DNA from: Escherichia phage adrianh
Strand: one strand, 5' to 3'
Length of the DNA stretch: 64,000 nucleotides
Sequence record: MN850614.1
This document shows positions 36,936 to 37,304 of this stretch, piece by piece. The notes under the pieces were generated by a model. That model ran no database searches, was not told the DNA's origin, and saw nothing but the letters and a program-made list of their open reading frames with translations. The translations under genes were made by a program, and so were the position numbers. The first letter of the stretch is position 1; each line of letters starts with the position of its first letter.

Positions 36936-37304
36936 GAGCAGAAGACCAAATACAGCAAGTTACTTAAAATTTCAAGCCAATTTAATTTTGAAAAATTTAA
37001 AACTTGGTCTGGCTCAACAAATTTACAGAAGACCGTTTACAGCAAAACTTAAACAATCTATTTCTCGGTAAAGAAAAGGCGAAGGTTCGATTCCTTCACT
37101 CGGCAGATGTCGAGTTGGTGTAATGGTAGCACTTAAGATGATAAACAACGGTCTGGTAATTATCTTTGTAGATAAGTTATTAAGCTTACCTGTGAGTATG
37201 CGACCACAAAGGGTGAAAGGGTAAATTCTAGATTTAAACCCAAAAAGGCACATCGCTACAGACCTTAAGCAAGTCTGGGTAGCTTATCTACAAAGATAAT
37301 TTAA

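What the first reader, a model, noticed from the sequence alone, without database searches (positions are those of the whole stretch)
37146..37300. Structured non-coding element closed by a perfect 14 bp inverted repeat
TCTTTGTAGATAAG (37161-37174) and CTTATCTACAAAGA (37283-37296) are perfectly complementary and enclose about 108 nt with further internal pairing, in a gap of the tRNA array between a T-arm-like fragment and tRNA-Lys(UUU). Only a spurious minus-strand ORF overlaps. This looks like a small stable RNA gene, analogous to the small RNAs of unknown function in the T4 tRNA region, or a remnant of a mobile element or intron.
Basis: seen in the sequence. Interest (0 to 1): 0.5.

Follow-up and report, generated by a model that had tools for sequence, protein, structure and literature searches.

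The report
Conserved structured RNA beside phage Ro60-like gene
The hairpin is real and marks a conserved, about 145-nt structured non-coding RNA in the tRNA cluster of a Felix O1-like phage; it probably belongs to a previously undescribed set of Y-RNA-like RNAs that accompany a phage version of the Ro60 RNA-binding protein.

Summary
The inverted repeat exists. It is 19 nt perfect, or 22 nt with one mismatch (37158-37179 / 37280-37301), and it is the only repeat of its kind in the 64 kb window.

It closes a + strand RNA fold with a stem P1 of about 24 bp and three inner hairpins (H1-H3). The fold is far more stable than shuffles (z = -6.3). It is kept by compensatory changes in two allelic sequence variants across Felixounavirus, Suspvirus and Mooglevirus, and in more distant relatives. 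No Rfam family matches it.

The context explains it:
- **Upstream gene.** The ORF 1.2 kb upstream (34566-35981) is a Ro60/TROVE-like protein (DUF2828).
- **The "T-arm fragment".** It belongs to a circularly permuted tRNA-like RNA with the YrlA (bacterial Y RNA) architecture.
- **A shared module.** That RNA and three short hairpins upstream share the pattern AAG-stem-UACAGCAA...stem-CUG.
- **Module and gene go together.** In 75 distant phage loci carrying the gene, the module occurs 94 times on the gene strand and 4 times on the other. Most copies lie within 0.5 kb of the gene.
- **Hairpin H3.** H3 of the reported element is a minimal copy of the module.

Best reading: a processed Y-RNA-like RNA that binds the phage Ro60-like protein. 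Expression and binding are untested.

The parts
37158..37181 (+).
   Evidence: In the 16-sequence alignment, 24 pairs are 97.6% paired and 8 pairs change on both sides.
37278..37301 (+). P1, 3' strand; ends 4 nt before tRNA-Lys(UUU)
37186..37216 (+). H1 hairpin. The loop AGUAUGCGA(C) recurs as AGUAUGCGG (L019), GAGUGCCG (variant B) and GAGUAGGCA (L020), on stems that differ (UGUG/CACA, GGGG/CCCC, CUAU/AUAG).
   Evidence: Read from the sequences by eye; not formally scored.
37219..37241 (+). H2 hairpin. AUUCUAGAUU is invariant in variants A and B (palindromic UCUAGA loop); the stems differ (AAAU/AUUU against UGAU/AUUA).
37259..37277 (+). H3 hairpin CAGAC-CUUAAGCAA-GUCUG, a minimal copy of the AG-stem-...AGCAA-stem-CUG module, stacked against the P1 3' strand
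   Evidence: 100% paired, with 2 of 5 pairs compensatory. The stem covaries (CAGUC/GACUG in L019, GUUC/GAAC in L020, AAGUC/GACUU in L021) while the loop is kept. It is the only + strand match to the mini-module pattern in 64 kb.
37023..37159 (+). Context: YrlA-like RNA (element 4). A module stem encloses a variable arm, T arm (37081-37097), acceptor-like stem closed by a loop (37098-37115) and D arm (37118-37132).
   Evidence: Fold. The acceptor-like stem covaries (ACUCGGC/GUCGAGU; ACACG/CGUGU; ACCCUUC/GAAGGGU followed by GCCA). The order of arms is as in Chen et al. 2014. There is no Rfam YrlA hit here.
36314..36392 (+). Context: short module 1 (UGAC-AGA-AGACCAA-UUACAGCAA ... UUGGUCU-G-GUCA)
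   Evidence: (D7). Rfam Dicty_Class_I_RNA 19.7 bits.
36481..36550 (+). Context: short module 2 (UUAC-AGA-AGACCGU-UUACAGCAA ... ACGGUCU-G-GUAA)
36936..37015 (+). Context: short module 3 (GAGC-AGA-AGACCAA-AUACAGCAA ... UUGGUCU-G-GCUC)
34566..35981 (+). Context: Ro60/TROVE-like protein gene (Pfam DUF2828 + DUF7788, 471 aa), same strand, 1.2 kb upstream
   Evidence: Pfam. AlphaFold model with pLDDT 89.8. The ten best full-length Foldseek PDB matches are all Ro60/TROVE structures, E 9e-8 to 1e-5, TM about 0.5-0.65.
36001..36121 (+). Context: two sigma-70-like promoters that would drive the unit from tRNA-Pro to tRNA-Ile, which contains the element
   Evidence: consensus matches only.
37306..37381 (+). 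Context: tRNA-Lys(UUU) immediately downstream; the same neighbour is found in L019, L020 and L021

Best explanation
The element (about 37158-37301, + strand) is a conserved, highly structured non-coding RNA of about 145 nt. It is transcribed as part of the polycistronic tRNA precursor and released by processing: RNase P cuts 4 nt downstream at tRNA-Lys, and the 24-bp stem P1 is a plausible RNase III substrate.

It is one member of a battery of Y-RNA-like RNAs encoded just downstream of a phage Ro60-like (DUF2828) protein. These RNAs share a module, AAG - stem of 5-9 bp - (U)UACAGCAA - variable insert - stem - CUG. I infer that this module is the protein's binding site, as the conserved helix of Y RNAs is for Ro60.

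In the reported element the module is present in minimal form as hairpin H3. The conserved loops of H1 and H2 would then be the 'effector' part that brings some other RNA or protein to the Ro60-like ring.

Shown here:
- the structure, its conservation, and that selection acts on the + strand RNA;
- the Ro60-like fold of the neighbouring protein;
- the genomic coupling between module and gene.

Inferred only: expression as a stable RNA, the processing sites, binding to the protein, and any effector.
For: **Structure**
- Fold z = -6.3.
- Variants A (about 190 records) and B (about 60 records) have different sequence but the same topology.
- On 16 sequences, 93.9% of cells are paired and 11 pairs change on both sides, against 6.6 +/- 1.1 in shuffles (0 of 500 reach the observed value). 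Slid controls give 27-46% paired.
- One-sided changes are G-U type, and the covariance model scores 146 bits on the + strand against 27 on the - strand.
- The covariance model finds untrained homologues in L021 (E 3e-4) and L020 (E 1e-3), at the same place before tRNA-Lys(UUU) and with the same architecture.

**Context**
- The upstream ORF is Ro60-like.
- A preprint reports that the Bas63 (Felixounavirus) protein gp130, which lies upstream of the tRNAs, is Ro60-like, and speculates that some of the 'tRNAs' are Y RNAs (PMC11482910).
- Neighbouring element 4 has the V-T-AS-D order of YrlA.
- A paralogous element next to a distant DUF2828 gene hits Rfam YrlA at E 1.5e-7.

**Coupling of module and gene, in 75 loci with 38-47% identical proteins**
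- 94 modules on the gene strand against 4 on the opposite strand.
- Same-composition hexamers give a mean of 7.3.
- 66 of 94 lie within 1.5 kb of the gene, where only 23% of the non-gene bases lie. Only 21 of 75 loci have tRNA arrays.
- Mini-modules sit in the gene's own leader in several loci.

**Hairpin H3**
- H3 fits the mini-module pattern, which is rare: 1 + strand hit in the 64 kb window, and 4 hits on both strands of the roughly 1.05 Mb of distant DUF2828 loci.
- In L020 the whole element is closed by a module-type stem.
Against: - No transcript, processing or binding data exist, and I found no Felix O1 transcriptome paper.
- H3 lacks the extra 5' AGA bulge of the neighbouring modules, and its loop reads AAGCAA or UAGCAA rather than CAGCAA. 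The link between H3 and the module was noticed after the fact.
- The canonical Ro60-binding motifs (GGUCCGA, GNCGAAN0-1G, CGAA) are absent.
- Rfam YrlA does not hit any copy in this phage.
- Element-5 homologues were found only in Ounavirinae-like phages. In those phages both the gene and synteny are conserved anyway, so co-occurrence there proves little.
- Bas63 gp130 counters the ppl defence even when moved alone into T7, so the protein can act without these RNAs in that assay.
- The strict module scan requires pairing, so stem covariation in that set arises by construction. Only the strand, hexamer and distance controls are independent.
Confidence: 0.55

Rival explanations
1. A processing or insulator hairpin only. 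The long perfect P1 duplex is an RNase III (or other nuclease) site that separates the upstream RNAs from tRNA-Lys and sets precursor stability, and the interior has no function of its own.
For: P1 is 22-24 bp and nearly perfect, about two helical turns, and its length is kept by compensatory change in variants A, B, L019 and L021. It ends 4 nt before tRNA-Lys. A second long hairpin (38364-38453) ends 1 nt before tRNA-Leu. The element has no promoter or terminator of its own.
Against: Interior features are conserved where the stems are not: the H2 sequence AUUCUAGAUU, the H1 loop AGUAUGCG-like, and the H3 loop CUUAAGCAA. These persist across variants and down to relatives with 53-63% identical proteins. 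In L020 the closing stem is short and of module type, yet the interior is kept. The two roles are not mutually exclusive.
Confidence: 0.2
2. An independent phage small RNA unrelated to the Ro60-like protein, for example a decoy, sponge or regulator aimed at a host factor or defence system. The two allelic forms A and B would reflect an arms race.
For: Two sharply different interiors are exchanged as a cassette between identical flanks (CRP22/L003 against the window). There is no canonical Ro60 motif. The protein works alone against ppl.
Against: H3 matches the module that tracks the DUF2828 gene across phages. The element abuts a YrlA-like RNA and three modules on the same transcript. In L020 it is closed by a module stem.
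Confidence: 0.2
3. A remnant of a mobile element or intron (terminal inverted repeats of a miniature element, a degenerate group I intron, or a homing-endonuclease footprint).
For: Terminal inverted repeat. HNH endonuclease genes are inserted elsewhere in the array in some relatives. The A and B forms are alternative cassettes.
Against: No intron or ribozyme family hit. No second copy in the window or in any locus. The position is fixed. Substitutions preserve RNA pairing, including G-U, on one strand only. No coding capacity.
Confidence: 0.03
4. A protein-coding gene on the minus strand (76-aa ORF, 37023-37253), as annotated 'hypothetical protein' in some records.
For: The ORF exists and is annotated in a few GenBank records.
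Against: It is open for only 36-50 aa in variant-B and distant relatives. Single-base indels occur within it among variant-A phages. More than half of it is antisense to the conserved tRNA-like element 4.
Confidence: 0.01

Closest known systems
Bacterial and phage Y RNAs, especially YrlA (Rfam RF02553; Chen et al. 2014, PMC4201824) and Yrl1/Yrl2 of Thermus phage phiLo (PMC12135203)
   Same: Encoded within a few kb of a Ro60-type gene on the same strand. The 5' and 3' ends form a long stem around a large structured interior. Several different RNAs occur per locus. The immediate neighbour (37023-37159) has the YrlA order of variable arm, T arm, closed acceptor-like stem and D arm. A paralogue in a distant DUF2828 locus hits RF02553 at E 1.5e-7.
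   Different: The protein is a DUF2828-family relative recognisable as Ro60 only by fold. The conserved RNA motif is AAG-stem-UACAGCAA...CUG, not GGUCCGA, GNCGAAN0-1G or CGAA. The reported element has no tRNA-like domain, is longer (about 145 nt), and carries the module as an internal hairpin rather than in its terminal stem. There is no RF02553 hit in this phage. The RNAs are embedded in a tRNA operon.
Small stable RNAs of the phage T4 tRNA region (species 1 and 2, rnaC/rnaD) (from my own knowledge)
   Same: Non-tRNA structured RNAs co-transcribed with phage tRNAs and presumably released by the tRNA-processing machinery; function unknown.
   Different: No sequence similarity was detected: DNA matches to the element are confined to Ounavirinae records. 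No Ro60-like gene or module is known for T4. I did not compare the structures directly.
RNase III processing stems (rRNA operon stems, T7 early-mRNA sites) (from my own knowledge)
   Same: A double-stranded stem of about 22-24 bp formed by sequences flanking a functional RNA inside a polycistronic precursor.
   Different: Cleavage is untested. The T7 sites carry internal loops, whereas this stem is nearly perfect. The conserved interior argues for more than a cleavage signal.
Dictyostelid Class I RNAs (Rfam RF01414; Kjellin et al. 2021, PMC7919456)
   Same: Those RNAs start with AAG, have a 6-bp terminal stem that covaries, carry an 11-nt motif CCUUACAGCAA directly after the 5' stem strand, and end in CUGU. 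The phage modules read (A)AAG-stem-(U)UACAGCAA ... stem-CUG(U/A). RF01414 is the best non-tRNA Rfam hit for five short modules: 26.8, 26.3, 19.7, 17.1 and 15.3 bits. The H3 loop CUUAAGCAA resembles CCUUACAGCAA.
   Different: All scores are below the gathering score of 41.5, and there is no hit in L021. The hosts are a eukaryote on one side and phages of enterobacteria on the other. The known direct binder there is an RRM protein (Rnp1A/CIBP). Whether Dictyostelium has a DUF2828 protein could not be checked. The resemblance may be convergent or due to chance.

Membership tests
Y RNA (Ro60-associated non-coding RNA, broad sense) | Encoded close to a Ro60 orthologue on the same strand | tested here: met
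   The element lies 1.2 kb downstream of ORF 34566-35981 on the same strand. The best full-length PDB fold matches of that ORF are all Ro60/TROVE. By sequence it is DUF2828/DUF7788, with no PDB sequence hit.
Y RNA (Ro60-associated non-coding RNA, broad sense) | 5' and 3' ends pair in a long stem that encloses a large internal loop or structured module | tested here: met
   P1 of about 24 bp with covariation, around a three-hairpin interior. The true RNA ends are not mapped.
Y RNA (Ro60-associated non-coding RNA, broad sense) | Conserved Ro60-binding motif in the stem (GGUCCGA bulged helix; GNCGAAN0-1G; CGAA) | tested here: not met
   None of these motifs is present in 37150-37305. The neighbouring modules have CAGAAG / NGAAG instead.
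Y RNA (Ro60-associated non-coding RNA, broad sense) | Physical binding to the Ro60 protein | not testable with these tools
   Needs immunoprecipitation or gel shift. Genomic coupling of the module to the gene is indirect support only.
YrlA (Rfam RF02553) | Match to the covariance model | tested here: not met
   No YrlA hit at E <= 10 in 36870-37310, nor in the Michonne orthologous region. The model does hit L022 9707-9815 (40.9 bits, E 1.5e-7, gathering score 69).
YrlA (Rfam RF02553) | tRNA-like domain: variable arm, T arm, closed acceptor-like stem, D arm | tested here: not met
   The reported element has no T or D arm. The adjacent element 37023-37159 does.
DUF2828-associated module RNAs (defined here) | A-G + stem closed by G:C + 1-5 nt + (C/A/U)AGCAA ... 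stem + CUG, on the strand of the gene | tested here: met
   H3 at 37259-37277 fits the zero-insert form, and this is the only + strand hit in the window. Four full modules lie just upstream. The test was designed after the resemblance had been seen.
Dictyostelid Class I RNA (Rfam RF01414) | Match to the covariance model at the gathering score; 42-65 nt; AAG start, 11-nt motif, CUGU end | tested here: not met
   No hit on the element itself. The neighbouring modules score 15-20 bits, and 26-27 bits in L022, against a gathering score of 41.5.
tRNA / tmRNA | Cloverleaf, or tRNA-like domain with a tag reading frame | tested here: not met
   ARAGORN and Rfam call nothing in 37150-37305.
Group I/II intron, self-cleaving ribozyme, miniature mobile element | Model match, multiple copies or coding remnants | tested here: not met
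   No Rfam hit. Single copy. No conserved ORF.
Intrinsic terminator | GC-rich stem followed by a U tract | tested here: not met
   No terminator-like site at the element. The stem is AU-rich and is followed by UUAAUGG and then a tRNA.

The most novel reading that the evidence does not exclude
The module AAG-stem-UACAGCAA...stem-CUG is the recognition element of DUF2828-type Ro60-like proteins, and it is the same motif as in the Class I RNAs of dictyostelid amoebae (AAG start, 6-bp covarying stem, CCUUACAGCAA, CUGU end). Those RNAs are abundant, of unknown mechanism, and thought to be unique to Dictyostelia. If so, Class I RNAs would be Y-RNA-like ligands of a Ro60-like protein. DUF2828 proteins are mentioned in papers on eukaryotes (plants, a tardigrade), and one of four proteins pulled down with a Class I RNA, DDB_G0281243, has no known function. 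The reported phage RNA would then be a composite member of a cross-kingdom RNP family.
Probability: 0.1. Interest if true: 0.9.

Novelty: new variant of a known kind. Interest (0 to 1): 0.68.

Why it matters
Ro60 and Y RNAs form an RNA-surveillance system whose bacterial and viral roles are poorly understood. Phage versions are only beginning to be studied, with one structure from a Thermus phage published in 2025.

This analysis points to a much larger phage clade of Ro60-like proteins (Pfam DUF2828; at least 595 loci in IMG/VR; 2,584 protein clusters with E <= 1e-5) that has its own RNA partners, with a simple conserved module. These RNAs include tRNA mimics and the multi-hairpin RNA reported here.

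In Felix O1-like phages the protein is reported in a preprint to be an anti-defence factor against ppl. The RNAs are therefore obvious candidates for specificity or effector subunits.

This gives concrete, small RNA targets for binding, deletion and structural work. It also explains several unannotated gaps, and 'hypothetical proteins' called on the wrong strand, in about 250 sequenced phage genomes.

Tried and rejected
- **Rfam.** Scans of the array and of the element at permissive thresholds found no family for the element. YrlA does not hit this phage's copies.
- **T-arm or D-arm reading of H1/H2.** I tried reading H2 (loop UUCUAGA) as a T arm and H1 as a D arm. This is not supported in L019, and I dropped it.
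- **Hairpin or hammerhead ribozyme.** I considered this for the CAGAAGACC arms. The arms form plain helices and there is no Rfam hit, so I dropped it.
- **True permuted tRNA gene.** I considered that element 4 needs ligation to give a functional tRNA. The acceptor stem is shortened to 5 bp in several genera and no anticodon loop can be formed, so a tRNA mimic is the better reading.
- **Covariance model of the YrlA-like elements.** The MAFFT alignment of distant loci was too rough to use (A5), and I did not build the model.
- **AlphaFold-database fold search.** I wanted to look for a Dictyostelium DUF2828 protein, but the library was not available.
- **Literature.** There is no Felix O1 transcriptome or small-RNA paper. 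No paper contains the motif as a word. DDB_G0281243 appears only in the Class I preprint. The Sim et al. 2020 review was not held.
- **Sequence-only searches of the protein against the PDB.** These found nothing. Only the fold comparison shows the Ro60 relationship.

Full report
**Where the window comes from.** The region is 100% identical to Escherichia phage VpaE1_ev035 and 99% identical to Salmonella phage Felix O1. The window is therefore a Felixounavirus genome. ARAGORN finds 24 tRNA genes on the + strand between 36148 and 41046. The finding lies in the gap between tRNA-Asp (ends 36877) and tRNA-Lys(UUU) (starts 37306).

**Checking the observation.**
- Both 14-mers are present. The 3' arm is at the stated coordinates. 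The 5' arm is at 37163-37176, two bases to the right of what was written.
- The repeat is longer than reported: 19 nt perfect (37158-37176 / 37283-37301) and 22 nt at 95%.
- It is the only perfect inverted repeat of at least 14 nt with a loop of at most 150 nt in the whole window. Dinucleotide shuffles give on average 0.1 such 14-mer windows, against six consecutive ones here.
- As RNA, the + strand folds at -48.3 kcal/mol, against -27.3 +/- 3.4 for shuffles (z = -6.3). The fold has a closing stem P1 of about 24 bp, hairpins H1 (37186-37216), H2 (37219-37241) and H3 (37259-37277), and a small weak hairpin that is not conserved.

**Conservation and covariation.**
- The element is present in about 250 Ounavirinae records and in two forms at the same site. 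Variant A (the window, Felix O1) is in about 190 records. Variant B is in about 60 records from Felixounavirus, Suspvirus and Mooglevirus.
- The interiors are too different for BLAST to align, yet RNAalifold gives the same topology for each.
- The closing stem differs by compensatory changes (UAGAUAAG/CUUAUCUA against CAGUAGC/GUUACUG).
- H2 keeps AUUCUAGAUU on different stems, and H3 keeps its loop while G-C changes to A-U in the stem.
- On a 16-sequence alignment, P1 + H2 + H3 are 93.9% paired. Eleven pairs change on both sides, against 6.6 +/- 1.1 in shuffles (0 of 500 reach the observed value). Sliding the partners by 1-3 columns drops pairing to 27-46% and compensatory pairs to at most 2.
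- One-sided changes are A-U to G-U or U-G to C-G. These are tolerated only in the + strand RNA. A covariance model scores the + strand at 146 bits and the - strand at 27 bits.
- That model also finds sequences not used to build it, in two more distant phages: L021 (Yersinia phage P778, E 3e-4) and L020 (E 1e-3). In both, the hit lies directly upstream of tRNA-Lys(UUU) and folds into a long terminal stem with H3 next to its 3' strand.
- There is no second copy in the window.
- The 76-aa minus-strand ORF is not conserved.
- No promoter-like or terminator-like site belongs to the element. The nearest + strand promoters are at 36001, 36092 and 37555. It should therefore be part of the precursor that runs from tRNA-Pro to tRNA-Ile.

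**What surrounds it.**
- *Repeated hairpin.* Four times between 36314 and 37159 there is a hairpin with a nearly identical 5' arm CAGAAGACCnnnUACAGCAA and 3' arm nnnGGUCUGG (family D7). The variable positions and a short outer helix covary between the four copies: CAA/UUG against CGU/ACG, and UUAC/GUAA, UGAC/GUCA, GAGC/GCUC.
It folds as a circularly permuted cloverleaf: variable arm, T arm GAAGG-UUCGAUU-CCUUC, an acceptor-like stem closed by a loop (ACUCGGC-AGAU-GUCGAGU), and a D arm with AAUGGUA. The acceptor-like stem covaries among genera: ACACG/CGUGU, and in Michonne and Mordin ACCCUUC/GAAGGGU followed by GCCA.
- *Match to YrlA.* This order of arms inside a stem formed by the RNA's ends is exactly the architecture described for YrlA, the tRNA-mimicking bacterial Y RNA (Chen et al. 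2014).
- *Upstream protein.* The ORF immediately upstream of the array (34566-35981, 471 aa) is Pfam DUF2828 + DUF7788. It has no sequence match in the PDB. An AlphaFold model (pLDDT 89.8) has as its ten best full-length matches only Ro60/TROVE structures: Thermus phage phiLo Ro60 (9KOP), Xenopus Ro60, Deinococcus Rsr and human Ro60.
- *Prior report.* A preprint made the same structural observation for Bas63 gp130 and speculated that some 'tRNA genes' might be Y RNAs. It also showed that gp130 counters the ppl defence system (PMC11482910).

**The module tracks the Ro60-like gene, not the tRNAs.**
- I fetched progressively more distant homologues of the protein (63% to 38% identity). The same module recurs next to the gene in all six that I inspected by eye, with fully covarying stems.
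- Its general form is (A)AAG, a stem of 5-9 bp whose first pair is the G of AAG with the C of CUG, then 1-5 nt, then CAGCAA (usually UACAGCAA), an insert of 7-230 nt, the 3' strand, and CUG.
- Some inserts are YrlA-like tRNA mimics. Three stand in tandem right after the gene in L022. One of them hits Rfam YrlA at E 1.5e-7 over the whole model, and another hits it partially (E 0.0035).
- A strict scan of 75 IMG/VR loci (1.06 Mb) finds 94 modules on the gene strand in 46 loci, against 4 on the opposite strand.
- Forty same-composition hexamers used in place of CAGCAA give a mean of 7.3. The only high value comes from the overlapping ACAGCA.
- 66 of the 94 lie within 1.5 kb of the gene (57 within 0.5 kb), where 23% of the non-gene bases lie. 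None lies inside the gene. Only 21 of the 75 loci have three or more tRNAs.
- Several very short modules end about 10 nt before the gene's start codon. This is the arrangement expected of an autoregulatory binding site.
- Because the scan demands pairing, the stem covariation in that set is not independent evidence. The strand, hexamer and distance controls are.

**How the reported element fits.**
- H3 reads C-AG-AC-CUUAAGCAA-GU-CUG. That is the AG...CUG frame, a short stem, and a loop ending in AGCAA directly followed by the 3' strand, so it is a module with no insert.
- This pattern is rare. H3 is the only + strand match in 64 kb, and there are four matches on both strands of the roughly 1.05 Mb of distant loci.
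- The H3 stem covaries in L019, L020, L021 and Mooglevirus while the loop C(C)UU(A/U)AGCAA is kept.
- In L020 the whole element is closed not by a long duplex but by a module-type stem (UUGCA-AAG-AAUCU-UUCAGCA ... GAGAUU-CC-CUGCAA).
- I therefore read the element as one of five RNAs in this operon built on the same module. Three have only a short AU-rich insert with no recognisable domain, one carries a tRNA mimic, and this one carries the H1/H2 hairpins and an unusually long terminal duplex.

**Mechanism: what is shown and what is inferred.**
- *Shown:* a conserved + strand RNA structure; a Ro60-like fold for the neighbouring protein; genomic coupling of the module with that protein family.
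- *Inferred by analogy with Ro60 and Y RNAs*: the protein binds the module, and the rest of each RNA brings or excludes other partners.
- *Inferred from position:* RNase P cleavage at tRNA-Lys releases the 3' end. P1, at about two helical turns, is a plausible RNase III substrate.
- *Against a strict dependence on the RNAs:* gp130 alone protects T7 from ppl.
- *Against membership in the Y RNA or YrlA families:* the canonical Ro60-binding motifs are absent and Rfam YrlA does not hit this phage's copies. I therefore describe it as working like a Y RNA and do not file it as a member.

**Rivals.** A pure processing hairpin is compatible with P1 but not with the conserved interior loops. An unrelated small RNA cannot be excluded, because the H3 link was recognised after the fact. 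A mobile-element or intron remnant, and a minus-strand protein, are poorly supported.

**An unexpected resemblance.**
- Among 4,227 Rfam families, the best non-tRNA hit for five short modules is the Class I RNA of Dictyostelium. The scores are 26.8 and 26.3 bits in L022 (E about 0.01) and 19.7, 17.1 and 15.3 bits in the window. All are below the gathering score, and there is no hit in L021.
- The published hallmarks of Class I RNAs are an AAG start, a 6-bp covarying terminal stem, CCUUACAGCAA after the 5' strand, and a CUGU end. These coincide with the phage module.
- I could not test whether dictyostelids have a DUF2828 protein. One of four proteins pulled down with a Class I RNA is uncharacterised. 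I treat this as a lead with low probability.

**Novelty.** Phage Ro60 homologues with Y-like RNAs are known from mycobacteriophages and Thermus phage phiLo, and the Ro60-like nature of the Felixounavirus protein has been noted. I found no description of the following (and Rfam):
- the RNAs themselves;
- the AAG-stem-UACAGCAA...CUG module;
- its coupling to the DUF2828 clade;
- the multi-hairpin RNA at 37158-37301.

I rate it a new variant of a known kind.

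Noticed in passing
window 37597-37866 (tag frame 37633-37665; odd tRNA 37788-37866): Possible phage tmRNA-like RNA. After a sigma-70-like promoter (37555-37583) comes AUAAAU followed by GCA AAC GAC AAU GUU UUU CUG GCA GUA GCU UGA, which reads ANDNVFLAVA*. This resembles tmRNA tag peptides. Rfam tmRNA_permuted scores 29.4 bits (E 2.6e-4) and tmRNA 16.3 bits (E 1e-4), both below gathering. The frame is conserved in all Ounavirinae loci, with synonymous GAC/GAT and TGA/TAA changes. It is followed directly by the 'tRNA-Arg(UCU)', which lacks a D arm and has a G3:U70 pair plus an encoded ACCA. ARAGORN calls no tmRNA.
   Followed up: partly
window 36314-36392, 36481-36550, 36936-37015, 37023-37159: Four paralogous hairpins share CAGAAGACCnnnUACAGCAA ... 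nnnGGUCUGG, with compensatory changes between the copies. The fourth encloses a circularly permuted tRNA mimic with YrlA architecture. They are not annotated in the GenBank records I inspected.
   Followed up: yes
L022 9534-9670; window 36322-36388, 36489-36546, 36944-37011: The short modules are repeatedly the best non-tRNA Rfam hit to Dictyostelium Class I RNA (RF01414), at 15-27 bits and below gathering. They share its AAG start, covarying stem, UACAGCAA motif and CUG end.
   Followed up: partly
L033 6835-6881, L034 1761-1798, L037 2856-2893, L046 7947-7988, L049 7900-7940, L023 about 7970-7985: In distant phages a very short module (insert 7-17 nt), or in L023 (phi-pp2) only the UACAGCAA motif, ends about 10-15 nt before the start codon of the DUF2828 Ro60-like gene. 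This suggests translational autoregulation. The window's gene has an ordinary promoter and leader without it.
   Followed up: partly
window 38364-38453: A second long hairpin (26-nt arms, 85% complementary, 38-nt loop) ends 1 nt before tRNA-Leu(UAG) at 38455. This echoes the way the reported element abuts tRNA-Lys (repeat I1). It gave a weak minus-strand hit to the element's covariance model (E 0.07).
   Followed up: no
window 38010-38096: Degenerate tRNA-like sequence: acceptor UGGGACG/CGUCCCA followed by UGCCA, a CCA-containing anticodon-like loop and a weak T stem. Neither ARAGORN nor Rfam calls it (and repeat D4).
   Followed up: no
L003 (CRP22) 717-868 against window 37156-37305: Variants A and B of the element are exchanged as a cassette between flanks that are otherwise nearly identical. 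The switch points lie inside the conserved outer part of P1 (AUCUUUG / CAAAGAU). HNH homing endonuclease genes are inserted elsewhere in the array in some relatives.
   Followed up: partly
L010/L011 (Michonne, Mordin) about 1352-1475; L020 8951-9094: In these phages the YrlA-like RNA has a full 7-bp acceptor stem followed by an encoded discriminator base and CCA, and then a short loop. It looks like a genuine permuted tRNA end that RNase P could open, as reported for the Mycobacterium smegmatis YrlA.
   Followed up: no
window 34113-34484: A small DUF5681 gene precedes the Ro60-like gene here and in L019, L020 and L021. It may be a conserved partner.
   Followed up: no
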